From a virus (Duplodnaviria; Heunggongvirae; Uroviricota; Caudoviricetes): a DNA stretch of 17,683 nt. Shown here in pieces: positions 404 through 17,201 of the stretch. The notes beneath the pieces are model-generated. The model saw only the letters and a program-made list of their open reading frames with translations, was not told the DNA's origin and made no database searches. The position numbers and the translations under genes are program-made. The number at the start of each line of letters is the position of its first letter. The first letter of the stretch is position 1. Location of the stretch: IMG/VR virus record IMGVR_UViG_2526164647_000009. The stretch is one strand, 5' to 3'.

Positions 404-447
404 TTGAGGTGTACTGGCAATAGCGGACACTACCATTTGTTCTTTTT

Positions 448-1266
448 TTAAGCAGCCATCTGATGATATTTTTCCCTGAAGGCTGCCGGGGAGATATTCC
501 CCAGACGAGAGTGACGACGCTGACGATTGTAGAAAATCTCAATGTATTCCCGTATTACTGAGATGGCTTCATCCCGGTTATTAAAACGATAGTGGCTCAG
601 GCTCTCATTTTTCAGCGTTCCCCAGAAGCTTTCCATCGGAGCGTTGTCGTAACAGTTACCTTTACGCGACATTGATGTTTTCAGACCAGACTGCTCCTGT
701 ATGACCCGGTAATCGTATGCGCAGTACTGTGAACCTCGATCAGAGTGGTGGATTAGCCCGGCAGGTGGGCGCTGGCTCCTGAGCGCCATAAACAGGGCTT
801 TACCTGTCAGCTCTTTTGTCATGCGCTCTCCCATGGCGTAGCCGACAATTTCGCACGTATAAACATCTTTGATGCCAGCGAGGTACAACCATCCCTCCTG
901 TGTGGCAACATACGTCAGGTCCGCCACCCAGACCTGATTTGGTGCTGTAGGAGCGAACGTCTGGTTCAGCAGATTTGGCGCAACTGGCAGATTGTGGTTC
1001 GGGTTCGTAGTCGCTCTGAACTTGCGTTTCTGCTTACAGCGTAGCCTCAGCTCCTTACGAAGACGTGCCAGTCGGTCACGACCAACGATGATGCCATTCT
1101 CTGCCAGCTCCGTCTGGAGCCGCCGGGTTCCATATGTTTCGCGAGTGCGGATATGTGCCACCTTAATCTCCAGTTTTAGCCGCTCATCACTTTGTTTTCT
1201 GTCTGAGGGTTCATGCTGTACCCAGTTGTAATAACCGCTCCTGGATACACCAAATACCTGACACAT
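448..1266 (-). CDS. IS3-family transposase OrfB (DDE catalytic domain), IS600-like, copy A
   Basis: The 272-aa ORF has the IS3-family integrase signature ([11 protein letters not shown]...EGWLYLA...HHSDRGSQY...[15 protein letters not shown]). It is in the -1 frame relative to the upstream orfA fragment. It differs from copy B at one residue (Leu32 versus Pro32, base 1172 versus 3113). Confidence 0.9.
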
Positions 1267-1301
1267 CGCTTCAATGGGAAATTGTTGTCGCCATTGTTCG
1301 A

Positions 1302-1482
1302 TTAACGCGTATTTTTCAGCGACTCCTGTGCAAAATACGCTGTTGATTTTTTTAATATATCGCGCTCAAGGCGAGCTTCATTTAACGCCTTACGCAGTTG
1401 CAGAATTTCAGATTCCAGTTCAGCCACCGTGCGGGAACCAGGAGTACCGAGCCCTTTTCTGGCGGCGGTAACCCATTGTCCT
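1302..1482 (-). pseudogene. IS3-family OrfA C-terminal fragment (leucine-zipper part only), IS600-like copy A; the N-terminal helix-turn-helix part is absent
   Basis: The translation ...GQWVTAARKGLGTPGSRTVAELESEILQLRKALNEARLERDILKKSTAYFAQESLKNTR shows a heptad Leu pattern and the YFA motif of IS3-family OrfA C-termini. An A7 run (1347-1353 on the minus strand) sits at the orfA/orfB overlap. The homology ends at about 1482, where the palindrome junction lies. Confidence 0.8.
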
Positions 1483-1487
1483 GAAGG

Positions 1488-1490
1488 CAC
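1488..1490. repeat. CAC, left copy of the 3-bp target-site duplication flanking IS629
   Basis: CAC lies immediately outside the IS629 terminus at 1491 and again at 2797-2799. Removing IS629 plus one CAC restores an open orfA reading frame (cct gaa ggc act tta gga caa tgg = PEGTLGQW). Confidence 0.8.
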
Positions 1491-1532
1491 TGAACCGCCC
1501 CGGGTTTCCTGGAGAGTGTTTTATCTGTGAAC

Positions 1533-2415
<883 letters not shown>

Positions 2416-2419
<4 letters not shown>

Positions 2420-2742
2420 TTTTTCCAGAGGCGGTCGAACTCCGCCTTCGCAAAATAAGCGGAAGCCTGGCGAAGGATATCGTTACTGCGGCGCAGTTCA
2501 CGATTTTCACGCTCCGGCTCTTTCAGACGCTGACGTTCAGCGGTGGTGAGCCCTCCATCACCGCCCCCGGTATCCCGCTCATGCTGGCGACCCCAGACAC
2601 GCAGAGTCTCCGGCGTACAGCCAATCTTTGGAGCAATGGAACAAATTGTCGCCCATTGTGAGTCATATTCGCCCTGACTTTCCAGAACCATACGGACTGC
2701 CCGTTGACGGACTTCGGGGGAAAAACGAGTATTTTTAGTCAT
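2416..2742 (-). CDS. IS629 transposase OrfA (helix-turn-helix and leucine zipper), 108 aa
   Basis: [108 protein letters not shown] matches my memory of IS629 OrfA. Its stop overlaps the orfB ATG (ATGA). It lies 40 bp inside the right-hand inverted repeat. Confidence 0.9.
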
Positions 2743-2796
2743 CCTGTTTACCTCTTTCTCAGGAAGTTTAGTCTCCAGGATTCCCGGGGCGGTTCA

Positions 2797-2799
2797 CAC
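2797..2799. repeat. CAC, right copy of the 3-bp target-site duplication flanking IS629
   Basis: Same trinucleotide as 1488-1490, directly abutting the other IS629 terminus. Confidence 0.8.
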
Positions 2800-2800
2800 T

Positions 2801-2983
2801 TTAGGACAATGGGTTACCGCCGCCAGAAAAGGGCTCGGTACTCCTGGTTCCCGCACGGTGGCTGAACTGGAATCTGAAATTCTGCAACTGCGTAAGGCGT
2901 TAAATGAAGCTCGCCTTGAGCGAGATATATTAAAAAAAGCAACAGCGTATTTTGCACAGGAGTCGCTGAAAAATACGCGTTAA
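2801..2983 (+). pseudogene. IS3-family OrfA C-terminal fragment, IS600-like copy B; the N-terminal part is absent from this window
   Basis: The frame reads LGQWVTAARKGLGTPGSRTVAELESEILQLRKALNEARLERDILKKATAYFAQESLKNTR and stops at 2981-2983. There is no upstream start, helix-turn-helix region or left inverted repeat. Confidence 0.8.
2932..2939 (+). promoter_or_regulatory. A7G (A AAA AAG type) -1 ribosomal frameshift motif at the orfA/orfB overlap of the IS600-like element
   Basis: The A7 run followed by G sits at the point where orfB is open in the -1 frame relative to orfA, which is the standard IS3-family OrfAB fusion mechanism. The mirror motif in copy A (1346-1353, minus strand) has T instead of G after the A7 run. 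Confidence 0.7.
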
Positions 2984-3018
2984 TCGAACAATGGCGACAA
3001 CAATTTCCCATTGAAGCG

Positions 3019-3837
3019 ATGTGTCAGGTATTTGGTGTATCCAGGAGCGGTTATTACAACTGGGTACAGCATGAACCCTCAGACAGAAAACAAAGTGATG
3101 AGCGGCTAAAACCGGAGATTAAGGTGGCACATATCCGCACTCGCGAAACATATGGAACCCGGCGGCTCCAGACGGAGCTGGCAGAGAATGGCATCATCGT
3201 TGGTCGTGACCGACTGGCACGTCTTCGTAAGGAGCTGAGGCTACGCTGTAAGCAGAAACGCAAGTTCAGAGCGACTACGAACCCGAACCACAATCTGCCA
3301 GTTGCGCCAAATCTGCTGAACCAGACGTTCGCTCCTACAGCACCAAATCAGGTCTGGGTGGCGGACCTGACGTATGTTGCCACACAGGAGGGATGGTTGT
3401 ACCTCGCTGGCATCAAAGATGTTTATACGTGTGAAATTGTCGGCTACGCCATGGGAGAGCGCATGACAAAAGAGCTGACAGGTAAAGCCCTGTTTATGGC
3501 GCTCAGGAGCCAGCGCCCACCTGCCGGGCTAATCCACCACTCTGATCGAGGTTCACAGTACTGCGCATACGATTACCGGGTCATACAGGAGCAGTCTGGT
3601 CTGAAAACATCAATGTCGCGTAAAGGTAACTGTTACGACAACGCTCCGATGGAAAGCTTCTGGGGAACGCTGAAAAATGAGAGCCTGAGCCACTATCGTT
3701 TTAATAACCGGGATGAAGCCATCTCAGTAATACGGGAATACATTGAGATTTTCTACAATCGTCAGCGTCGTCACTCTCGTCTGGGGAATATCTCCCCGGC
3801 AGCCTTCAGGGAAAAATATCATCAGATGGCTGCTTAA
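3019..3837 (+). CDS. IS3-family transposase OrfB (DDE domain), IS600-like, copy B
   Basis: The 272-aa ORF is identical to the copy A OrfB except for Pro32. Confidence 0.9.
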   Translation: MCQVFGVSRSGYYNWVQHEPSDRKQSDERLKPEIKVAHIRTRETYGTRRLQTELAENGIIVGRDRLARLRKELRLRCKQKRKFRATTNPNHNLPVAPNLLNQTFAPTAPNQVWVADLTYVATQEGWLYLAGIKDVYTCEIVGYAMGERMTKELTGKALFMALRSQRPPAGLIHHSDRGSQYCAYDYRVIQEQSGLKTSMSRKGNCYDNAPMESFWGTLKNESLSHYRFNNRDEAISVIREYIEIFYNRQRRHSRLGNISPAAFREKYHQMAA

Positions 3838-3882
3838 AAAAAGAACAAATGGTAGTGTCCGCTATTGCCAGTACACCTCAAA

Positions 3883-4188
3883 CTACTCATTGCCAGATGG
3901 GAACTGACCGCAGAACAGGCTGTCGCACAGCAGTTAAAAAATCAGGTGTCAAAAGGAAATCTTATCGATACCGGATTTTGTATTTTTGCCCTTAGTAAGC
4001 TGGCGATGGCTTTATCCAGTACGCTTGACTCCATTCCTTTGTCCATGCAACGACAGTTCCCGGATTTAACGCCGCGTCATATTGATCATCTGAAAATCCT
4101 TATTGCTAAGGGAGCGAATCAGTGCGCGCGTGCGGGGGATAAATTACCGGATTTACTCGATGAATATATCAGAACAACAACTGAGTAA
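3883..4188 (+). pseudogene. nu1: Terminase small subunit (lambda Nu1-like), C-terminal roughly 100 codons only; the 5' part of the gene is replaced by the IS600-like element
   Basis: The translation ...ARWELTAEQAVAQQLKNQVSKGNLIDTGFCIFALSKLAMALSSTLDSIPLSMQRQFPDLTPRHIDHLKILIAKGANQCARAGDKLPDLLDEYIRTTTE aligns with the lambda Nu1 C-terminal region (RHRLTRAQADAQELKN...ETAFCTFVLSRIA...LPLSVQRRFPEL...LSEYIEQSG, from memory). The homology starts exactly at the IS end. The 3' end overlaps the start of A as in lambda. Confidence 0.85.
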
Positions 4189-6088
4189 TATGATGGTGGC
4201 AGTCACTATCGCACTGCAGCCACTGGTCAGGGTATTGCCGGTGACGGCTGTAGAATGGGCCGATCAAAATTATTACCTGCCTAAAGAATCGTCATACGGT
4301 GAGGGGGAATGGAAAACGCTGCCGTTTCAGGTCGCCATCATGAACTGCATGGGCAATGACGAGATTCGTACAGTTAACCTGATTAAATCTGCCCGTGTTG
4401 GTTATACAAAAATGGTGCTTGGTGTGATCGGGTATTTTATTGAGCACAAATCCCGCAACACTCTTCTTTTTCAGCCGACGGACTCAGCTGCTGAAGATTT
4501 TATGAAGTCTCACGTGGAAGCAACAATTCGTGATGTTCCTTGCCTGAAAAAACTTTCTCCCTGGCTGGGCCGGAAACACCGGGATAATACGCTCACACTG
4601 AAGCGTTTTTCCTCTGGTGTGGGGTTCTGGTGTTTGGGTGGTGCTGCTGCCAAAAACTACCGTGAAAAATCTGTCGATGTGGTCTGCTATGACGAACTCT
4701 CCTCGTTTGAACCGGATGTGGAAAAAGAAGGTTCGCCAACACTGCTTGGCGATAAACGTATTGAAGGTTCGGTATGGCCAAAATCCATACGCGGTTCAAC
4801 GCCAAAAATTAAAGGCTCCTGTCAGATTGAAAAAGCTGCGAATGAATCTGCGCATTTCATGCGGTTTTATGTCCCTTGCCCTCATTGCGGGGAGGAGCAG
4901 TATCTGAAGTTTGGCGATGATGCGACGTCGTTTGGCCTGAAATGGGAGAAGGGTAAACCGGAAACGGTGTATTACCTGTGTGAACATAATGGCTGCGTGA
5001 TCCGTCAGTCTGAACTTGATCAGACCGGGGGGCGCTGGATTTGTGACAATACCGGGATGTGGACGCGTGACGGTCTGACGTTTTTCAGTGCTTCGGGTAA
5101 TGAAATTCCGCCGCCGCGCTCCATCACTTTCCATATATGGACGGCGTACAGTCCGTTCACCACCTGGGTACAGATAGTCTGTGACTGGCTGGATGCACTG
5201 AAAGATCCCAACGGCGTGAAAACTTTTGTGAACACCACGCTGGGCGAGACCTGGGAAGAGGCCGTGGGCGAAAAACTCGATCACCAGGTACTGATGGATA
5301 AGGTTGTGCCTTACACGGCAACGGTGCCTGTCCGGGTGGTTTATCTGACGGCGGGCATTGACTCGCAGCGAAACCGTTTTGAGATGTATGTCTGGGGGTG
5401 GGCTCCGGGAGAGGAAGCCTTTCTGGTGGATAAAATCATCATCATGGGACGTCCTGATGAGGAAGAGACGCTGTTACGTGTGGATGCGGCGATCAATAAA
5501 AAATACCGCCATGCAGACGGTACCGAAATGACCATTTCCCGTGTCTGCTGGGATATCGGGGGGATCGATGGCGAAATCGTGTATCAGAGGTCAAAAAAAC
5601 ACGGTGTTTTCCGGGTACTGCCGGTAAAAGGTGCCTCTGTCTATGGCAAGCCGGTGATCACCATGCCGAAAACCCGCAATCAGCGGGGTGTGTATCTGTG
5701 TGAGGTGGGGACGGATACCGCAAAAGAAATTCTCTATGCCCGAATGAAGGCCGATCCCACCCCTGTGAATGAGGCCACATCGTATGCCATCCGCTTTCCT
5801 GATAATCCGGAGATTTTTTCGCAGACAGAGGCACAACAACTGGTGGCGGAGGAACTGGTGGAAAAGTGGGAAAAAGGAAAGATGCGTCTGTTGTGGGATA
5901 ACAAAAAGCGGCGTAACGAAGCGCTGGACTGCCTGGTGTATGCCTATGCGGCATTACGTGTGTCCGTGCAACGCTGGCAACTTGATCTGGCTGTGCTGGC
6001 GGCATCCCGCAAGGATGCAACTGCACAACCGACCCTTGAAGAACTGGCAGCGAAGCTGTCCGGAGGAGTGAATGGTTACAGTCGCTGA
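4160..6088 (+). CDS. A: Terminase large subunit (lambda gpA-like)
   Basis: MNISEQQ...TAVEWADQNYYLPKESSYGEGEWKTLPFQ...SARVGYTKM...KRIEGSVWPKSIRGSTPKIKGSCQIE...CPHCGEEQYLKFGD...FHIWTAYSPFTTWVQIV...FVNTTLGETWEE...KKRRNEALDC is collinear with lambda gpA along its whole length. The start is taken at the ATG aligning with the lambda MNIS start, not the upstream in-frame ATG at 4103. Confidence 0.95.
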   Translation: MNISEQQLSNMMVAVTIALQPLVRVLPVTAVEWADQNYYLPKESSYGEGEWKTLPFQVAIMNCMGNDEIRTVNLIKSARVGYTKMVLGVIGYFIEHKSRNTLLFQPTDSAAEDFMKSHVEATIRDVPCLKKLSPWLGRKHRDNTLTLKRFSSGVGFWCLGGAAAKNYREKSVDVVCYDELSSFEPDVEKEGSPTLLGDKRIEGSVWPKSIRGSTPKIKGSCQIEKAANESAHFMRFYVPCPHCGEEQYLKFGDDATSFGLKWEKGKPETVYYLCEHNGCVIRQSELDQTGGRWICDNTGMWTRDGLTFFSASGNEIPPPRSITFHIWTAYSPFTTWVQIVCDWLDALKDPNGVKTFVNTTLGETWEEAVGEKLDHQVLMDKVVPYTATVPVRVVYLTAGIDSQRNRFEMYVWGWAPGEEAFLVDKIIIMGRPDEEETLLRVDAAINKKYRHADGTEMTISRVCWDIGGIDGEIVYQRSKKHGVFRVLPVKGASVYGKPVITMPKTRNQRGVYLCEVGTDTAKEILYARMKADPTPVNEATSYAIRFPDNPEIFSQTEAQQLVAEELVEKWEKGKMRLLWDNKKRRNEALDCLVYAYAALRVSVQRWQLDLAVLAASRKDATAQPTLEELAAKLSGGVNGYSR

Positions 6089-6275
6089 ACTGCAGGCGCT
6101 GCGTCAGGCGCGCCTTGATTTATTAACCGGTAAACGGGTTGTGTCGGTACAGAAAGACGGTCGCAGGATCGAATATACGGCAGCGTCCCTGAATGAGCTT
6201 AACCGTGCGATCAACGATGCGGAGTCGGTTCTGGGTACGACCCGACGCCGCCGACCGCTGGGAGTGAGGTTATGA
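6072..6275 (+). CDS. W: Head-tail joining / head completion protein (lambda gpW-like)
   Basis: The 67-aa product ...LTGKRVVSVQKDGRRIEYTAASLNEL...RRRRP resembles lambda W (...[20 protein letters not shown]...). There is a GGAGGA ribosome-binding site at 6062-6067, and the position between A and B is conserved. Confidence 0.9.
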   Translation: MVTVAELQALRQARLDLLTGKRVVSVQKDGRRIEYTAASLNELNRAINDAESVLGTTRRRRPLGVRL

Positions 6276-7865
6276 AACGAACGCCTGTCCTGATTGATGT
6301 GAACGGCGTTCCGCTTCGTGAGAGTCTCAGCTACAACGGAGGCGGCGCAGGATTTGGCGGGCAAATGGCAGAGTGGTTACCACCGGCGCAGAGTGCCGAT
6401 GCGGCCCTGTTGCCTGCATTGCGTCTGGGGAATGCCCGGGCAGATGATCTGGTGCGCAATAACGGTATCGCGGCTAATGCGGTGGCCCTGCATAAGGATC
6501 ATATCGTCGGGCACATGTTTCTTATCAGCTACCGTCTGAACTGGCGTTGGCTGGGGATGCGGGAGACCACGGCAAAAAGTTTTGTCGGGGAGGTGGAAGC
6601 AGCCTGGTCGGAATACGCAGAAGGAATGTTTGGCGAGATCGACGTGGAAGGGAAACGCACGTTTACGGAATTTATCCGTGAAGGGGTGGGCGTGCATGCC
6701 TTTAACGGCGAAATCTTTGTGCAGCCGGTCTGGGATACGGAAACCACGCAGTTATTCCGTACGCGTTTTAAAGCCGTGAGTCCGAAACGGGTGGACACGC
6801 CAGGACACGGTATGGGGAACCACTTTCTGCGGGCCGGGGTTGAGGTCGATCGGTATGGGCGGGCGATTGCGTACCATATCTGTGAGGATGATTTTCCGTT
6901 CTCTGGTGCCGGACGCTGGGAGCGGATCCCGCGTGAGCTTCCCACCGGGCGTCCGGCCATGCTGCATATTTTTGAGCCGGTGGAGGACGGGCAGACCCGT
7001 GGGGCCAATCAGTTTTACAGCGTAATGGAGCGGATGAAGATGCTGGACTCCCTGCAGGCCACGCAGCTTCAGTCGGCCATTGTGAAGGCGATGTATGCAG
7101 CCACAATCGAAAGTGAACTTGATACCGAAAAGGCATTTGAATATATCGCGGGGGCACCGCAAGGTCAGCAGGATAATCCGCTTATTAATATTCTGGAGAA
7201 GTTCACCCGCTGGTATGACACGAATAACGTGACGCTGGGCGGTGTTAAAATTCCGCACCTTTTTTCCTGGCGATGCGCTGAACCTGCAGACAGCGCAGGA
7301 TTCAGACAATGGATTTTCGGCGCTTGAACAGGCGCTGCTGCGGTATATTGCAGCCGGTCTTGGCGTTTCCTACGAACAGTTGTCCCGTGATTACTCGAAG
7401 GTCAGTTACTCAAGTGCCCGTGCCTCCGCCAATGAGTCGTGGCGCTATTTTATGGGGCGGCGAAAATTTATTGCGGCCCGGCTGGCCACGCAGATGTTTT
7501 CCTGCTGGCTGGAAGAGGCGCTTCTTCGGGGGATTATTCGTCCGCCACGGGCGCGTTTTGATTTTTACCAGGCGCGTTCAGCCTGGTCACGGGCAGAGTG
7601 GATTGGCTCCGGAAGAATGGCCATTGACGGGCTCAAGGAGGTCCAGGAATCGGTGATGCGCATTGAGGCCGGACTGAGCACGTATGAGAAAGAACTGGCA
7701 CTGATGGGCGAAGATTATCAGGACATTTTCCGCCAGCAGGTCAGGGAATCCGCAGAGCGCGAAAAAGCCGGACTCTCACGTCCGGTGTGGATAGCCCAGG
7801 CGTATCAGCAGCAGATAGCGGAGAGTCGCAGGCCGGAAGAGGAGACAACATCACGTGAGACGTAA
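6272..7865 (+). pseudogene. B: Portal protein (lambda gpB-like) with a +1 frameshift at the T6 run 7260-7265
   Basis: ORF 6272-7327 carries the N-terminal 330 or so residues (...GGGAGFGGQ...ARADDLVRNNG...IFEPVEDGQTRGANQFYSVME...SAIVKAMYAATIESELDT...GGVKIPHLF). ORF 7242-7865 carries the remainder (FPGDALNLQTAQDSDNGFS...LLRYIAAGLGVSYEQLSR...WIGSGRMAIDGLKEVQE...). Both align with lambda B. The total span is 3n+1. Confidence 0.9.
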
Positions 7866-9360
7866 TCTTTCACATATTATCGCTGCGGCATTCAATGAGC
7901 CGCTGCTTCTGGAGCCCGCCTATGCGCGGGTTTTCTTTTGCGCGCTCGGGCGTGAGATGGGCGCAGCAAGCCTTTCGGTACCGCAACAGCAGGTACAGCT
8001 TGACGCTCCCGGGATGCTGGCTGAAACGGACGAGTACATGGCCGGAGGCAAACGACCTGCCCGTGTTTACCGGGTGGTGAACGGTATTGCTGTACTGCCG
8101 GTGACCGGCACGCTGGTACACCGGCTGGGTGGCATGCGGCCATTTTCCGGAATGACTGGCTATGACGGCATTGTCGCCTGTCTTCAGCAGGCAATGGCGG
8201 ACACTCAGGTACGGGGCGTACTGCTGGACATTGACAGTCCTGGCGGGCAGGCCACCGGCGCGTTTGACTGCGCTGACATGATTTACCGTCTCCGGCAGCT
8301 GAAGCCTGTCTGGGCACTGTGCAATGACACGGCCTGTTCAGCCGCCATGTTACTGGCATCGGCCTGCTCCCGACGGCTGGTTACCCAGACATCCCGTATC
8401 GGCTCCATTGGGGTGATGATGGGCCATGTCAGCTATGCCGGTCATCTGGCACAGGCCGGTGTGGATATCACGCTGATTTACGCCGGATCGCACAAGGTGG
8501 ATGGCAATCAGTTTGAATCCCTGCCAGCAAAGGTTCGCCAGGACATGCAGCAGCGCATTGATGCGGCGCGCCGGATGTTTGCTGAAAAAGTGGCGATGTA
8601 TACCGGTTTATCTGTGGATGCGGTTATGGGAACAGAGGCCGCCGTTTTTGAAGGTCAGTCCGGTATTGAGGCCGAACTGGCGGATGAATTAATCAATGCG
8701 TCGGACGCCATCAGCGTGATGGCTGCGACGCTGAACACACACGATACAGGAGGCACTATGCCGCAATTAACTGCAACGGAGGCTGCCGCGCAGGAGAACC
8801 AGCGAGTGATGGGGATCCTGACGTGTCAGGAAGCGAAAGGACGTGAACAACTGGCCACGATGCTGGCAGGGCAACAGGGTATGAGCGTTGAGCAGGCCCG
8901 GGCGATTCTGGCCGTGGCGGCACCGCAACAATCTGGTGTATCTGCGCAGAGTGAAGCCGATCGCATTATGGCATGTGAAGAGGCGAAAGGACGTGAACAA
9001 CTGGCGGCAACGCTGGCGGCGATGCCGGAGATGACGGTGGAAAAAGCCCGTCCGATTCTGGCTGCTTCACCGCAGGCGAATGCCGGACCCTCACTTCGTG
9101 ATCAGATTATGGCCCTGGATGAGGCAAAAGGGGCAGAGGCGCAGGCTGAAAAACTGGCGGCCTGTCCGGGGATGACCGTGGAGAATGCCCGGGCTGTACT
9201 GGCGGCAGCCTCAGGCAGGGCAGAACCGGTTTCTGCATCCACAACCGCCATGTTTGAACATTTCATGGCGAACCATTCACCGGCAGCGGTACAGGGTGGC
9301 GTGCCACAGACGTCAGCAGACGGTGATGCGGACGTGAAAATGCTCATGGCCATGCCATGA
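7855..9360 (+). CDS. C: Head maturation protease / minor capsid protein C (lambda gpC-like, SppA/ClpP-type serine peptidase) with a C-terminal scaffold region
   Basis: ...AFNEPLLLEPAYARVFFCAL...NGIAVLPVTGTLV...SGMTGYDGI...LLDIDSPGGQATGAFDCADMI...KPVWALCNDTACSAAMLLASACSRRLVTQTSRIGSIGVMM...ITLIYAGSHKVDGN matches lambda C. A GTG start at 7855 overlaps the portal stop; the exact start is uncertain. Confidence 0.9.
   Translation: MRRNLSHIIAAAFNEPLLLEPAYARVFFCALGREMGAASLSVPQQQVQLDAPGMLAETDEYMAGGKRPARVYRVVNGIAVLPVTGTLVHRLGGMRPFSGMTGYDGIVACLQQAMADTQVRGVLLDIDSPGGQATGAFDCADMIYRLRQLKPVWALCNDTACSAAMLLASACSRRLVTQTSRIGSIGVMMGHVSYAGHLAQAGVDITLIYAGSHKVDGNQFESLPAKVRQDMQQRIDAARRMFAEKVAMYTGLSVDAVMGTEAAVFEGQSGIEAELADELINASDAISVMAATLNTHDTGGTMPQLTATEAAAQENQRVMGILTCQEAKGREQLATMLAGQQGMSVEQARAILAVAAPQQSGVSAQSEADRIMACEEAKGREQLAATLAAMPEMTVEKARPILAASPQANAGPSLRDQIMALDEAKGAEAQAEKLAACPGMTVENARAVLAAASGRAEPVSASTTAMFEHFMANHSPAAVQGGVPQTSADGDADVKMLMAMP
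8758..9360 (+). CDS. nu3: Scaffolding protein (lambda Nu3-like), in-frame internal start within C
   Basis: A strong ribosome-binding site (ACAGGAGG, 8746-8752) lies 5 nt upstream of an in-frame ATG at 8758. The product MPQLTATEAAAQENQRVMGILTCQEAKGREQ... corresponds to the lambda Nu3 region (...AAENSRIMGILNCEEAHGRE...). Confidence 0.7.
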   Translation: MPQLTATEAAAQENQRVMGILTCQEAKGREQLATMLAGQQGMSVEQARAILAVAAPQQSGVSAQSEADRIMACEEAKGREQLAATLAAMPEMTVEKARPILAASPQANAGPSLRDQIMALDEAKGAEAQAEKLAACPGMTVENARAVLAAASGRAEPVSASTTAMFEHFMANHSPAAVQGGVPQTSADGDADVKMLMAMP

Positions 9361-11657: not shown

Positions 11658-12228
11658 GAATGCCATCCGCAATCTGAACAGCCTCGATACCCGCATGGTG
11701 CCACAGACCAGCGCATGGGCGGTAAACCGTGTGGCGGCAAAGATTGTTTCTGTCGCCACACGGCAGGTTGCGCAGAATACCGTTGCCGGGGATAACCAGG
11801 TGAAAGGTATTCCCCTGAAAACGGTCAGGGAGCGTGTCAGGCTGCTTAAAGCCAGCCCCTCAGGAAAAATGTATGCCCGCATGCGTGTTAACCGGGGTAA
11901 CCTGCCCGCCATTAAGCTGGGTACCGCACAGGTCAGACTGGCCCGCTCCCGGCATGGCAGCAACTCACGTCATCGTGGCAGCGTACTGAAAGTGGGGAAA
12001 TACCTTTTCCGGGATGCGTTTATTCAGCAACTGGCGAATGGTCGCTGGCATGTGATGCGGCGTATTGACGGCAAAAATCGTTACCCCATTGATGTGGTGA
12101 AAATCCCGATGTCCGGACCGCTGACACAGGCATTTGAAGATGCCCGCGACCGCATCATTGCTGCGGAAATGCCGAAACAGCTGGGGTATGCCCTGAAACA
12201 ACAACTGAGGTTACATCTGAGTAAATGA
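11641..12228 (+). CDS. Z: Tail assembly protein Z (lambda gpZ-like)
   Basis: MMKGLENAIRNL...WAVNRVAAK...VNRGNLPAIKLGTAQV...FIQQLANGRWHVMRRIDGKNRYPIDVVKIPMSGPLTQAF...QLGYALKQQLR resembles lambda Z (MAIKGLEQAVENL...INRVASS...VNRGDLPVIKLGNARV...FIQQLKNGRWHVMQRVAGKNRYPIDVVKIPMAVPLTTAF). Confidence 0.9.
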   Translation: MMKGLENAIRNLNSLDTRMVPQTSAWAVNRVAAKIVSVATRQVAQNTVAGDNQVKGIPLKTVRERVRLLKASPSGKMYARMRVNRGNLPAIKLGTAQVRLARSRHGSNSRHRGSVLKVGKYLFRDAFIQQLANGRWHVMRRIDGKNRYPIDVVKIPMSGPLTQAFEDARDRIIAAEMPKQLGYALKQQLRLHLSK

Positions 12229-12626
12229 ACCGACACACACAAATCCGTCAGAGCGTGCTGGCACGCCTTCGGGAACAGTGTGGAGACAGCGCCACGTTTT
12301 TTGACGGGCTTCCGGCATTTATTGATGCGCAGGAACTGCCTGCCGTGGCGGTGTGGCTGAGTGATGCTCAGTACACCGGAAAAATGACGGATGAAGATGA
12401 CTGGCAGGCTGTTCTGCATATTGCCGTCTTCATCCGGGCACAGGCACCGGATTCAGAGCTGGATATGTGGATGGAGAGCACCATTTTCCCGGCCCTGAAT
12501 GATGTACCGGCACTTTCCGGACTCATCGACACCCTGAACCCACTCGGTTTTAACTATCAACGTGATAATGAGATGGCTACCTGGGCGATGGCGGAAATCA
12601 CGTACCAGATCACGTACACGAATTAA
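12225..12626 (+). CDS. U: Tail terminator protein U (lambda gpU-like)
   Basis: ...ATFFDGLPAFIDAQELPAVAVWLSDAQYTG...WQAVLHIAVFIRAQAPDSELDMWMES...PALSGLI...YQITY resembles lambda U (...ATFFDGRPAVFDEADFPAVAVYLTGAEYTG...PDSELDAWMES...ITYEM). The ATGA overlap with the Z stop is present. Confidence 0.9.
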   Translation: MNRHTQIRQSVLARLREQCGDSATFFDGLPAFIDAQELPAVAVWLSDAQYTGKMTDEDDWQAVLHIAVFIRAQAPDSELDMWMESTIFPALNDVPALSGLIDTLNPLGFNYQRDNEMATWAMAEITYQITYTN

Positions 12627-13435: not shown

Positions 13436-13822
13436 ATGTTTCTGAAACAGGATACGTTTAATTATGAAAAACAGTCCGTGGTGCTCAGTGAGCTGTCCGG
13501 GCTGCAGAGAATTGAATATCTGACGTTTGTTCAGCAGCGAACGGCAAAGTTTGATGCACAGGAGGGAGAACTGCCGGAGGCTGAACGACAGATTGCTTTT
13601 CTGCGTATGGGAATGGATATCAATGCCTGGCTGGTTTCCCGCTCACTGTGGAATGCTGAGCAGTCTCAGGATGTTGAGACGCTTTGCGCATCCATTATGA
13701 CAACATGGTCGTATGATGCGCTGGGCGCGGGGGCGGAGAGGGTTCTGTCGCTGAGCGGTATGGGGACCATTGAGAATGCCGGGGATGATGATCATGAGGC
13801 GCTGACGCCGGAAAAGTCCTGA
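13436..13822 (+). CDS. G: Tail assembly chaperone G (lambda gpG-like)
   Basis: MFLKQDTFNYEKQSVVLSELSGLQRIEYL... resembles lambda G (MFLKTESFEHNGVTVTLSELSALQRIEHL...). The acidic C-terminus and the position before the overlapping T frame are conserved. Confidence 0.9.
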   Translation: MFLKQDTFNYEKQSVVLSELSGLQRIEYLTFVQQRTAKFDAQEGELPEAERQIAFLRMGMDINAWLVSRSLWNAEQSQDVETLCASIMTTWSYDALGAGAERVLSLSGMGTIENAGDDDHEALTPEKS

Positions 13823-14160
13823 CGCGGGAAATGCAGTTTGTCATGCGGCTTGCCCGGGAGTTCCGGCGGGCAGACTGGCGGCGGATGCTGTCGGATATGT
13901 CGGCCACTGAGCTTGGTGAGTGGGGCGATTATTTCCGGATGCAGAGCTTCAGTGATGTGTGGATGGATGCGCAGTTTGCCTCGCTGAAGGCATTGATCGT
14001 GAGAATGGTGTCCGGCAGCAGCGATGCTGCGGTGGCTGATTTCAGCCTTTTACCGGAAGAGAACGGGATACCGGAGCGAACGGACGAAGAACTGATGCAT
14101 CTTGGGGAAGGTATTTCCGGAGGTGTGCGTTATGGACCAGATAGCCAACCTGGTCATTGA
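13798..14160 (+). CDS. T: T portion of the tail assembly chaperone G-T fusion (lambda gpT-like), in the -1 frame relative to G; expected to be expressed only as a G-T fusion by ribosomal frameshifting
   Basis: The -1 frame is open from 13798, directly after its own stop at 13795-13797, and overlaps the last 22 nt of G. It reads ...GKVLTREMQFVMRLAREFRRADWRRM.... The G/T arrangement matches lambda. The only slip candidate in the overlap is GGAAAAG at 13810-13816. Confidence 0.8.
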   Translation, partial: GADAGKVLTREMQFVMRLAREFRRADWRRMLSDMSATELGEWGDYFRMQSFSDVWMDAQFASLKALIVRMVSGSSDAAVADFSLLPEENGIPERTDEELMHLGEGISGGVRYGPDSQPGH

Positions 14161-16872
14161 TTTGGGGATTGATGCGGCAGAGTTTAAAAATGAAATTCCC
14201 CGTATCAAAAACCTTCTGAATGGTGCAGCCAGCGATGCAGAACGGTCTTCTGCCCGTATGCAGCGTTTTATGGAGCGTCAGACTCAGGCGGCCCGGCAGA
14301 CAATGCAGGCGGCTTCTTCGGCTGCAACAGCAGCATCAGCCCATGCGCAGACGGTGGAGAAGAATGCACGGGCTCATGAACGCATGGCCCGTGAGGTGGA
14401 ACAAACCCGTCTGCGCGTGGATGCCCTGAATCAGAAAATGCGCGAGGAACAGGCGCAGGCCAGGGCGGCTCAGCTGGGGGTAAGCAGTGCTGCAGAAGTG
14501 TATATCCGCAAAATGGAGCGGGCAGGAAAAGCCACACATTCGCTGGGGCTGAAAAGTGCGGCAGCCCGGCGGGAGCTGGGGGTGTTAATCAGTCAGATGG
14601 CGCGCGGCAATTTTGGTGCGCTGAGGGGATCCGGGATAACGCTGGCTAACCGTGCCGGATGGACTGGCGCACTGATGTCGCCGAAAGGCATGATGACTGG
14701 CGGCGTTATTGGCGGACTTGTCGCGGCGGTCCTGGGTCTGGGTAAAGCCTGGCATGACGGCCGGAAGGAGGGCGAGAAATTTAACCGTCAGCTGGCGCTG
14801 ACGGGACATTATGCCGGTGTCACTGTCGGGCAGTTGTGGAAACTCAGCCGGGCCATATCCGGGAATGGTATCACGCAACATGCGGCAGCCGGTGCGCTGG
14901 CACAGGTGGTGGGCAGTGGGGCATTTCATGGAAACGATATTGGTATGGTGGCGAAAGCTGCCGCACAGATGGAGCGATCGGTTGGCCAGTCGGTCAGCGA
15001 TACCATAAATCAGTTTAAGCGGCTGAAGGATGATCCTGTAAATGCCGCGAAGGCGCTGGACAATGCGCTGCATTTTTTGAATGCCACTCAGCTTGAGCAG
15101 ATACGCGTCCTTGGGGAGCAAGGGGCGGTCCAGTGATGCGGCCCGGATCGCCATGTCTGCGCTGGCAGAGGAAACCGGTAAACGCACATCTGATATTGAT
15201 AATAATCTCAATGCGCTGGGTAGTACGCTGCAAACCTTGTCTGACTGGTGGAAGCAGTTCTGGGATGCGGCCATGAATATTGGTCGTGAAGACTCGCTGG
15301 ATGCGCAGATCGATGCGTTACAGGAAAAAATTCAGCGCGCGAAAAAATATCCGTGGACAAACGCCTCCACACAGGTGGAGTACGATCAGCAGCGTCTTAA
15401 CGATCTTCAGGAGAAAAAACGCCGGAAGGATTTGCAGGATGCAAAAGCGCAGGCAGAACGGAATTACCAGGAGCAACAGAAACGCCGGAATGCTGAAAAT
15501 GCCGCGCTGAACCGGATGAATGAAACGGAAGCTGCACGACATCAGCGGGAAATTGCGCGTATTAATGCCATGCAGTACGCCGACCAGGCTGTCAGGGATG
15601 CGGCGATACAGCGTGAAAATGAACGTTACGAAAAAGCCATTAAGAAAAATACACGGGCAACCCGTAATGATGAGGCCACCCGGTTATTGCTGCAGTACAG
15701 TCAGCAGCAGGCACAGGTGGAAGGGCAGATTGCTGCTGCCAGACAGTCAGCAGGCATTGCCACTGAAAGGATGACTGAAGCGCATAAACAGCTTCTGGCC
15801 CTGCAGCAGCGCATCAGCGACCTGGACGGGAAAAAGCTGACGGCAGATGAAAAGAGTGTGCTGGCCCGTAAGAATGAGCTGATTCAGGCGCTGACGCTGC
15901 TGGATGTGAAACAGCAGGAGCTGCAGAAACAGACAGCGCTTAACGACCTGAGAAAAGAAAACGGTTCAGCTGACCAGCCAGCTGGCAGACAAAGAACGTG
16001 CACTGCGTGAGCAGCACAATCTGGATATTGCCACTGCAGGTATGGGGGATAAGCAGCGGCAGCGCTACCAGGCACCGTTGCGCATCCGGCAGGAATACCG
16101 GCAACAGTTGCAACAGCTTGAGAATGACAGTCGCCAGAAAGGCACTTACGGGACGGAGGACTACCGGAGGGCTGAGGAGGTGCTGAAGGGGAGCCTGAAG
16201 CGACAACTGAATGAAAACAAACGCTACTGGCAGGAACTGGAAGTGGCGCAGGGCGACTGGAAAAACGGTGCCATGCGGGCGTTTCAGAATTTTACGGCGG
16301 ATGCGGATAATGCGGCGGGAACGGCAGAACAGATGTTTACAGTGGCATTCAGCAGTGCCGGTAATGCACTGGCGACATTCTGTACCACCGGTAAGCTGAA
16401 TTTTAAATCCTTCACCTCTTCCCTGTTGTCAGATATGGCCAGAATTATGGCACAGATGGCCATGATGCAGGCGGTAAAGGGCGTCGGTTCTTTATTCGGC
16501 TTCACGACTAATGCTGATGGCGGTGTTTACCAGTCTGCTGATTTGAGTCGCTACAGTGGCACGGTGGTTAACCGTCCGACGTTTTTTGCTTTTGCAAAAG
16601 GCGCGGGTGTGATGGGGGAAGCGGGACCTGAAGCCATTCTGCCACTGCGTCGCGGTGCTGATGGTAAGCTGGGGGTTGTGGCGGATACTGGTGGTTCAGG
16701 CATGGTGATGTTTGCCCCGCAGTACAACATTGAGATCAATAACGACGGCACGAACGGGCAGATAGGTCCGGCTGCCCTGAAGGTGGTTTATGACCTCGGG
16801 AAAAAAGCGGCCGCGGACTTTATGCAACAGCAGGCCCGTGATGGTGGCCGGTTAAGTGGAGCATACCGGTAA
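14132..16872 (+). pseudogene. H: Tail tape measure protein (lambda gpH-like) broken by two +1 frameshifts, within 15081-15134 and within 15952-16010
   Basis: Three consecutive ORFs in frames 2, 0 and 1 together align with lambda H from N-terminus to C-terminus (MDQIANLVIDLGIDAAEF... to ...INNDGTNGQIGPAALKVVYDLGKKAAADFMQQQARDGG, compared with lambda ...VINNDGTNGQIGPAALKAVYDMARKGARDEIQTQMRDGG). The total span is 2741 nt (3n+2). A GGAGG ribosome-binding site lies 8 nt before the ATG at 14132. Confidence 0.9.
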
Positions 16873-17201
16873 TGGAGACGTTTCACTGGAAAGTGCGCCC
16901 GGATATGAATGTGGTATCAGAGCCGAAAGTGGTGACAGTGAAGCTGGGCGATGGTTATGAACAGCGTCGTGCGGCGGGACTGAATAACCAGTTGTCGACT
17001 TACAGCGTGACGATACGTGTTCGTAAAGGTGAACACCCATCTTTAAAAGCCTTTCTGGAACGGCACGGTGGCGTCCGCGCATTTCAGTGGACGCCACCTT
17101 ATGACTGGAAACTGATCAGGGTGGTTTGTCGTAAATGGTCGGCAAGCGTGGGGGCGTTATGGGTGACTGTAACGGCCGATTTTGAACAGGTGGTGAACTG
17201 A
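16872..17201 (+). CDS. M: Minor tail protein M (lambda gpM-like)
   Basis: METFHWKVRPDMNVVSEPKVVTVKLGDGYEQRRAAGLN...TYSVTI...FLERHGGVRAFQWTPPYDWKLIRVVCRKWSA...ADFEQVVN resembles lambda M (MKTFRWKVKPGMDVASVPSVRKVRFGDGYSQRAPAGLN...FLEEHGGWKSFLWTPPYEW...AEFEQVVN). A TAATG overlap joins it to the H stop. Confidence 0.95.
   Translation: METFHWKVRPDMNVVSEPKVVTVKLGDGYEQRRAAGLNNQLSTYSVTIRVRKGEHPSLKAFLERHGGVRAFQWTPPYDWKLIRVVCRKWSASVGALWVTVTADFEQVVN

What the first reader, a model, noticed from the sequence alone, without database searches (positions are those of the whole stretch)
7242..7327. Portal gene B is split by a single extra T in a T6 run (7260-7265)
Reading frame 2 gives ...GGVKIPHLF then SWRCAEPADSAGFRQWIFGA and a stop. 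The adjacent frame gives FFPGDALNLQTAQDSDNGFS..., which continues the lambda B alignment (lambda ...GGAKVPHLMPGDSLNLQTAQDTDNGYS...). Five T would restore HLFPGDALNLQ. The gene span is 3n+1. A portal truncated at about residue 330 cannot form a functional connector.
Basis: seen in the sequence. Interest (0 to 1): 0.4.

Follow-up and report, generated by a model that had tools for sequence, protein, structure and literature searches.

The report
Frameshifted portal gene, defective Shigella prophage
A lambda/phage-21-type prophage portal gene is broken by one extra T in a run of T's; the break is real and shared by every Shigella flexneri copy checked, making it an ordinary dead gene in an already crippled prophage, not a sequencing error.

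Summary
Window 7260-7265 is a T6 run. The portal gene (6272-7865, 1594 nt = 3n+1) is split into a 351-aa ORF and a +1-frame remainder. Deleting one T gives a 530-aa protein that aligns end to end with lambda gpB (E 6e-214). That protein is 100% identical to an intact E. coli prophage portal.

The T6 is not an assembly error. The exact 351-aa truncated product is indexed in 2587 collection blocks and on at least 1000 contigs. These include independent complete S. flexneri genomes (301, AE014073, CP012735, CP007037, LR213452 and others). All 10 S. flexneri loci fetched have T6. Every E. coli and phage relative checked has T5. In four S. flexneri loci the extra T is the only difference from the live E. 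coli allele.

The break falls in the clip domain (lambda residue about 334). It removes the second stem helix, half of the wing and the crown. All copies also carry IS600 inside the small-terminase gene Nu1. Different sublineages carry further lesions.

Verdict: a fixed, ancestral slippage pseudogene in a defective prophage. Ordinary, and already visible in public annotation.

The parts
6272..7865 (+). Portal (lambda B / phage 21 portal homologue) pseudogene, 1594 nt = 3n+1
   Evidence: With one T removed, the 530-aa product aligns with lambda gpB residues 7-530 (E 6e-214) and is identical to an intact E. coli prophage portal.
7260..7265 (+). T6 homopolymer run. It is T5 in every intact relative. 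The extra T is the frameshifting insertion.
   Evidence: T6 in L003-L012 (S. flexneri). T5 in L001, L002, L013 (E. coli) by run count; L014-L023 carry the intact 1593-nt gene.
6272..7327 (+). 5' ORF: 331 native portal residues (first wing part, stem helix 1, most of the clip) plus a 20-residue out-of-frame tail SWRCAEPADSAGFRQWIFGA and a stop
   Evidence: The exact product is on record in 2587 blocks, annotated 'Head-tail preconnector gp5 [Shigella flexneri]'.
7266..7865 (+). 3' portion of the portal in the +1 frame (199 codons plus stop): end of clip, stem helix 2, second wing part, crown. The mechanical ORF starts at GTG 7242.
   Evidence: Gene callers pick inconsistent starts for it in other genomes (69, 137 or 207 aa).
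2797..3880 (-). Partial IS600 copy whose insertion truncates the small-terminase gene Nu1. This second inactivating lesion is shared by all S. flexneri copies. The transposase ORF B at 3019-3837 reads on the + strand, so the strand given here is the orientation relative to the L013 reference segment.
   Evidence: 99.5% to IS600 of L013. The Nu1 match starts at nt 202 of 510 in the window and in all 10 loci.
3880..4188 (+). 3' remnant of Nu1 (small terminase), lacking about the first 67 codons. cos and the Nu1 N-terminus are absent from the window.
   Evidence: Pfam Phage_Nu1 on the 107-aa product in sister loci.
4160..6088 (+). Large terminase subunit A, intact here (642 aa). It is frameshifted (-1 at nt 1838) in a subset of other S. 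flexneri strains.
6072..6275 (+). gpW head-tail joining protein, intact. Its end overlaps the portal start.
7855..9360 (+). C/Nu3-type S49 protease-scaffold gene, intact. Its start overlaps the end of the portal gene by 11 nt, so it has probably lost any translational coupling to the portal reading frame (inference).

Best explanation
The window is a whole draft contig (AFGV01000031.1). It carries the late region of a defective lambdoid prophage with phage-21-type head genes, and the allele matches only Shigella flexneri records.

In an ancestor of the S. flexneri copies examined, replication slippage on a T5 run (CAC CTT TTT CCT, coding H-L-F-P) added one T. Translation now leaves the portal frame after residue F331, which corresponds to lambda gpB M334 inside the clip domain. 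It then reads 20 aberrant residues and stops at 7325-7327.

The 351-aa product lacks the end of the clip, the second stem helix, wing residues 368-452 and the crown. By inference it cannot build the dodecameric connector. No proheads able to package DNA or join tails can therefore form.

The mutation was inherited vertically as a fixed pseudogene. The prophage was also disabled by IS600 insertion into Nu1, so nothing selects for repair. Further lesions have since accumulated independently in different strains.

Shown: the insertion, its exact position, its presence in all S. flexneri copies examined, its absence from relatives, and the co-occurring lesions. Inferred: the slippage mechanism, the loss of portal function, and the neutrality.
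For: The gene and the break:
- T6 run and frames.
- Nearest intact alleles differ by the T plus 2 synonymous substitutions. In L004, L009, L011 and L012 the T is the only difference from the intact E. coli allele.
- The repaired protein equals an intact E. coli portal found on 106 contigs in 187 blocks. All 10 contexts shown have complete Nu1 (169 aa) and A (642 aa).
- The break maps to the gpB clip domain. Pfam is split at profile position 288.

The T6 is real and shared:
- The exact truncated product is in 2587 blocks and on at least 1000 contigs. Accessions include AAN42336.1 (S. flexneri 2a 301), AAP16213.1, ABF04804.1 and ADA73063.1. Complete genomes include AE014073.1, CP012735.1, CP007037.1, CP026765.1, CP026792.1, LR213452.1 and CP178302.1.
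- All 10 S. flexneri loci have T6.
- No T6 allele occurs in 5426 complete E. coli genomes. All 12 listed of the 20 phage matches, including phage 21, span 1593 nt.

The prophage is otherwise defective:
- The IS600 interruption of Nu1 is shared by all 11 copies.
- Lineage-specific lesions are A -1@1838 in 5 strains, further A indels in L008, a 303-nt deletion in H in 2 copies, and M -1 in L011.
- Within-species polymorphism in the late genes is 10 nonsynonymous against 6 synonymous codons. This does not look like purifying selection, but the sample is small.
Against: No read-level data and no expression or particle data were available. Loss of function is inferred from the lambda structure, not tested. 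Most other head and tail genes are still intact in most strains, which could be read as retention for some use; the low divergence (0.1-0.4%) explains it equally well. A CUU UUU U context could in principle allow rare +1 slippage that would yield the exact wild-type protein.
Confidence: 0.93

Rival explanations
1. Homopolymer sequencing or assembly error in this draft contig: the true sequence is T5 and the portal gene is intact.
For: The window is a 2011-era draft contig. It carries two private 1-nt insertions in the tape-measure gene that occur on no other contig on record, so it may contain base-calling errors elsewhere.
Against: The identical T6 allele and the exact 351-aa product are present in all 10 independently assembled S. 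flexneri genomes fetched. They are also indexed in 2587 blocks and on at least 1000 contigs from NCBI, ENA and Logan. An error cannot recur identically across that many projects.
Confidence: 0.01
2. Recoding: the T6 run is a functional +1 ribosomal frameshift or transcriptional-slippage site that still yields useful amounts of full-length portal.
For: On CAC CUU UUU UCC, a P-site Leu or Phe tRNA could re-pair in the +1 frame, and the product would be exactly the wild-type protein (read from the sequence). From my own knowledge, CUU-to-UUU slippage is the prfB mechanism, and S. flexneri uses transcriptional slippage at long A/T runs in mxiE and the spa genes.
Against: Every intact relative has T5 and reads in frame, so the shift site is not a conserved feature. 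No Shine-Dalgarno-like stimulator lies upstream, and the next codon is UCC rather than a stop. The downstream RNA fold is unremarkable (z = -1.6). A run of 6 is well below the 8-9 or more needed for efficient RNA polymerase slippage (own knowledge). The prophage also lacks an intact Nu1, so a restored portal would serve nothing.
Confidence: 0.03
3. The truncated N-terminal portal fragment, or the split pair, is retained because it does something. One example would be poisoning portal-ring assembly of superinfecting phage-21/lambda-type phages.
For: The allele is fixed in every S. flexneri copy examined. No amino-acid change has accumulated in the 331 native residues of the 5' ORF in the 11 copies examined.
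Against: Fixation is expected for any neutral mutation in a clonal ancestor. Divergence is too low overall for the lack of substitutions to mean anything: there are only 3 variable sites in 1594 nt. The fragment ends in 20 nonsense residues. The late operon is separated from its promoter region by a nest of IS elements. No defence-related signal was seen, and none was specifically searched for.
Confidence: 0.03

Closest known systems
Bacteriophage lambda portal protein gpB (PDB 8k38/8k39; Pfam PF05136 Phage_portal_2)
   Same: The repaired 530-aa product aligns over lambda residues 7-530 (E 6e-214). Gene order is the same: Nu1-A-W-B-C-D-E-FI-FII-Z-U-V-G-T-H-M.
   Different: Here the gene carries a +1-nt insertion, so only residues 1-331 are made in frame. 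Lambda has CAT CTG ATG CCG-type HLMPGD at this place rather than the HLFPGD T-run (for the protein; the lambda DNA is from my own knowledge).
Phage 21 head-gene cluster (OL657228.1, M81255.1) and intact E. coli prophage portals such as WP_046880246.1
   Same: 93.3-93.5% nucleotide identity to phage 21 and relatives. 99.8% nucleotide and 100% amino-acid identity (after repair) to E. coli CFSAN029787 prophage portals. The GenBank name 'head-tail preconnector gp5' matches the wording used in the phage 21 record M81255.1.
   Different: Every hit listed in those searches spans 1593 nt, and the intact alleles fetched carry T5 or a complete 530-aa portal gene. Only the S. flexneri copies have T6.
Defective (cryptic) lambdoid prophages of Shigella and E. 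coli decayed by IS insertion and point frameshifts
   Same: IS600 and other IS3-family elements interrupt Nu1 and the lysis/cos region. There are scattered lineage-specific frameshifts and deletions.
   Different: Nothing in kind. This is one specific, well-dated example: the portal frameshift and the Nu1::IS600 lesion are shared by all the S. flexneri copies compared.

Membership tests
Lambda-family phage portal protein (PF05136) | Significant match to the family profile over its full length | tested here: met
   Repaired protein: PF05136 at 326.5 bits against a cutoff of 32.9, profile positions 2-354 of 354. Lambda gpB E 6e-214.
Lambda-family phage portal protein (PF05136) | Single uninterrupted reading frame encoding wing, stem, clip and crown | tested here: not met
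   The frame is broken after residue 331. The profile is split 2-288 and 288-354 between two ORFs. It is therefore a pseudogene of the family, not a functional member.
Lambda-family phage portal protein (PF05136) | Genomic context between gpW and the C/Nu3 protease-scaffold gene in a terminase-head-tail operon | tested here: met
Programmed frameshift / recoding site | The frameshift requirement is conserved among homologues | tested here: not met
   All intact relatives read through in frame with T5.
Programmed frameshift / recoding site | Stimulatory elements: upstream SD-like sequence, slow or stop A-site codon, or downstream structure | tested here: not met
   No SD-like motif upstream, and the A-site codon is UCC. 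Downstream fold z = -1.62.
Programmed frameshift / recoding site | Measurable trans-frame protein product | not testable with these tools
   Needs a reporter assay or proteomics.
Sequencing/assembly artefact | The difference is confined to one assembly or one sequencing technology | tested here: not met
   The T6 allele is in 10 of 10 independent S. flexneri genomes, 2587 blocks and at least 1000 contigs. By contrast, the window's tape-measure indels are on this one contig only.
Defective prophage (multiple inactivating lesions) | At least one further essential morphogenesis or packaging gene is disrupted | tested here: met
   Nu1 is truncated by IS600 in all copies. cos and the Nu1 N-terminus are missing from the window. 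A, H and M carry lesions in some strains.

The most novel reading that the evidence does not exclude
The fixed 351-aa N-terminal portal fragment (first wing part, stem helix 1, clip) is expressed and acts as a dominant-negative subunit. It would poison portal-ring assembly of superinfecting phage-21/lambda-type phages, making the pseudogene an accidental anti-phage decoy. Alternatively, rare +1 slippage on CUU UUU U supplies a trickle of full-length portal.
Probability: 0.03. Interest if true: 0.45.

Novelty: already known. Interest (0 to 1): 0.08.

Why it matters
It matters little beyond correct annotation. The two ORFs should be merged and flagged as one frameshifted portal pseudogene, and the prophage should be called defective. 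The T6 allele, together with Nu1::IS600, is a clean, vertically inherited marker for this S. flexneri prophage. In four strains it differs from a live E. coli prophage allele by that single base. It also gives a useful contrast within one contig: the portal frameshift is reproducible across thousands of assemblies, whereas the tape-measure frameshifts are private to this draft contig and cannot be trusted without reads.

Tried and rejected
- Assembly error. I looked up the exact truncated product. It is ubiquitous in S. flexneri, so this is rejected.
- T6 in E. coli. A 76-nt probe against 5426 complete genomes gave no perfect match.
- Programmed frameshift. I checked conservation, context and downstream structure (z = -1.6). 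Rejected.
- Window-specific substitutions at 7006 and 7421 as part of the lesion. Both are synonymous and limited to the window/L006 sublineage. Irrelevant.
- Literature. Two searches for a description of this pseudogene found nothing specific.
- Look-up of the window's second tape-measure fragment (15081-16010). No record, probably because gene callers chose a different start. The first fragment (14132-15136) did identify the contig.
- Lambda G-T slippery heptamer GGGAAAG. Absent from the window. The end of G reads CCG GAA AAG TCC TGA. Not pursued.
- The expensive homology and structure searches were not used. The question was settled without them.

Full report
**Observation**

The sequence at 7250-7270 reads ATTCCGCACC TTTTTT CCTGGCG. 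The T-run occupies exactly 7260-7265.

ORF 6272-7327 (351 aa) ends ...GGVKIPHLF-SWRCAEPADSAGFRQWIFGA-stop. The +1 frame, whose mechanical ORF is 7242-7865, reads ...FFPGDALNLQTAQDSDNGFS... to a stop at 7865.

The span 6272-7865 is 1594 nt (3n+1). Deleting one T gives a 1593-nt ORF of 530 codons with no stops.

**What the gene is**

The repaired protein matches lambda Portal protein B (PDB 8k38 and related entries). Residues 5-527 align with gpB 7-530 at E = 6e-214.

Pfam PF05136 (Phage_portal_2) covers profile positions 2-288 in the first ORF, 288-354 in the second, and 2-354 in the repaired protein.

At nucleotide level the closest sequenced phages are phage 21 and relatives, at 93.3-93.5% (20 records matched). 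Each listed match spans 1593 nt.

Gene order around the portal is Nu1'-A-W-B-C-D-E-FI-FII-Z-U-V-G-T-H-M.

**Is the extra T real?**

The window is the whole of contig AFGV01000031.1 (17,683 bp) from draft assembly GCA_000213675.2. An error was therefore a fair worry. Four results rule it out.

- The exact 351-aa truncated product is indexed in 2587 blocks of the assembly collection and on at least 1000 contigs. Accessions include AAN42336.1 (named S. flexneri 2a str. 301), AAP16213.1, ABF04804.1 and ADA73063.1. Complete chromosomes include AE014073.1, CP012735.1, CP007037.1, CP026765.1, CP026792.1, LR213452.1 and CP178302.1.
- All 10 loci fetched have T6 at the homologous position. The E. coli loci have T5.
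- A 76-nt probe centred on the run finds no perfect match in 5426 complete E. coli genomes. The best matches are 98.7%, which is the one-base gap.
- All 40 listed E. coli hits to the whole gene span 1593 nt.

The T6 is therefore a real allele. It is shared by every S. flexneri copy examined, and it matched only S. flexneri records plus one "Shigella sp." record.

**How small the lesion is**

Relative to the nearest intact alleles (E. coli CFSAN029787 and others), the window differs by the inserted T and two substitutions, at 7006 and 7421. Both substitutions are synonymous, because the repaired protein is byte-identical to the intact E. coli protein. That protein is on record on 106 contigs in 187 blocks.

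The two substitutions are private to the window/LR213452.1 sublineage. In L004, L009, L011 and L012 the extra T is the only difference from the live E. coli allele across 1594 nt.

All 10 contexts shown for the intact allele have complete Nu1 (169 aa) and A (642 aa). The ancestor therefore looked like a working phage-21-type head module.

**Consequence for the protein**

The last in-frame residue, F331, aligns with lambda M334. The lambda in-situ structure paper (PMC10721106) gives these domains:

| Domain | Lambda gpB residues |
|---|---|
| Wing | 24-249 and 368-452 |
| Stem | 250-279 and 343-367 |
| Clip | 280-342 |
| Crown | 453-511 |

The product therefore stops within the clip. It lacks the second stem helix, the second half of the wing and the crown, in total 199 of 530 residues. 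It carries 20 nonsense residues instead.

That such a fragment cannot form the dodecameric channel is an inference from the structure. It is a safe one, but it was not tested.

The C gene start (7855) overlaps the portal stop by 11 nt. Ribosomes now terminate about 530 nt upstream, so any coupling is probably lost (inference).

**Context: a defective prophage**

In the window and in all 10 S. flexneri loci, the Nu1 match begins at nt 202 of 510, directly after an IS600 copy (window 2797-3880). The cos-Nu1 N-terminal segment survives about 4 kb upstream in only three loci (L004, L009, L011). It is absent from the window.

Other lesions are lineage-specific:

- A -1 frameshift at nt 1838 of terminase A in five strains.
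- Extra indels in A in L008.
- A 303-nt deletion in the tape-measure gene in the window and L006.
- A -1 frameshift in M in L011.

Within-species variation in the late genes, excluding a recombinant tract in U, is 10 nonsynonymous against 6 synonymous codons. This does not look like purifying selection, though the numbers are small.

The picture is an ancestral inactivation followed by slow neutral decay. Both Nu1::IS600 and the portal T6 are shared by all copies, and their order cannot be resolved.

**Mechanism**

The most likely origin is replication slippage on a C-flanked T5 run, which is the classic route to plus- or minus-one indels. This is inferred. The allele then spread by descent.

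**Rivals**

- Sequencing error is excluded, as shown above.
- Programmed recoding fails its defining tests. Homologues read in frame with T5. There is no SD-like stimulator or slow A-site codon. The downstream fold is ordinary (z = -1.62).
- Rare spontaneous +1 slippage on CUU UUU U would produce the exact wild-type protein. It cannot be excluded at trace level. It would be pointless in a prophage without a functional small terminase or cos.
- A retained function for the fragment, such as dominant-negative exclusion of related phages, is conceivable. Nothing supports it beyond fixation, and fixation is expected anyway in a clonal lineage.

**Comparison with what is known, and novelty**

This is a pseudogene of the lambda-family portal (PF05136) in a decayed lambdoid prophage of the kind long described in Shigella genomes. 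The split ORFs have been in GenBank under the name "head-tail preconnector gp5" in several S. flexneri records. No paper specifically discussing the pseudogene was found.

Nothing here is new in kind, so I rate it "already known" with low interest. The practical value is for annotation: merge the two ORFs and flag them as one pseudogene. The allele also serves as a lineage marker.

The result carries one caution for this contig. The portal frameshift is reproducible everywhere. The two tape-measure frameshifts (15120, 15957) occur on no other contig on record and need read support before they are believed.

Noticed in passing
window 14132-17173 (insertions at 15120 and 15957; deletion junction near 14460): The tape-measure gene H is broken into three ORFs by two 1-nt insertions private to this contig: an A at 15120, and a G at 15957 that interrupts an A8 run. 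The first fragment's exact product is on record on this contig only. A 303-nt in-frame deletion is shared with LR213452.1 (L006). The private insertions may be draft-assembly errors or real strain-specific mutations.
   Followed up: partly
window 405-3880: A nest of IS elements. Two inverted partial IS600 copies (405-1486 and 2797-3880) are both cut at the same internal position (about nt 1084 of the reference segment). They flank fragments of another IS3-family element (ORFs 1533-2201, 2063-2419, 2416-2742). The nest replaces cos and the Nu1 N-terminus. The layout differs among S. flexneri strains, which suggests IS-mediated deletions and inversions.
   Followed up: partly
L003, L005, L007, L008, L010 (terminase A, nt 1838 of the gene; homologous to window ~5997): A subset of S. 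flexneri strains, including AE014073.1, carries a -1 frameshift near the 3' end of the large terminase gene. The window lacks it. L008 has further indels. These are independent, later decay events.
   Followed up: partly
window 12225-12626 (gene U) versus L003, L005, L007, L008: Gene U is 98.3% identical to the E. coli reference in some S. flexneri strains but 93.3% in others (20 variable codons). This points to a recombination or gene-conversion tract with another lambdoid prophage inside an otherwise near-identical region.
   Followed up: no
window 13800-13835 (end of G, start of T): The lambda G-T slippery heptamer GGGAAAG is absent from the whole window. The end of G reads CCG GAA AAG TCC TGA, and T lies in the -1 frame. 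The site used for the expected G-T frameshift in this phage type was not identified.
   Followed up: no
L002 and L013 (E. coli FDAARGOS_943, NZ_CP065615.1): This E. coli genome carries two near-identical copies of the same phage-21-type late region. Both have intact T5 portals, but both are peppered with IS600, ISEc60, IS1A and IS66 insertions and other pseudogenes. It is a Shigella-like pattern of prophage decay in a genome labelled E. coli.
   Followed up: no
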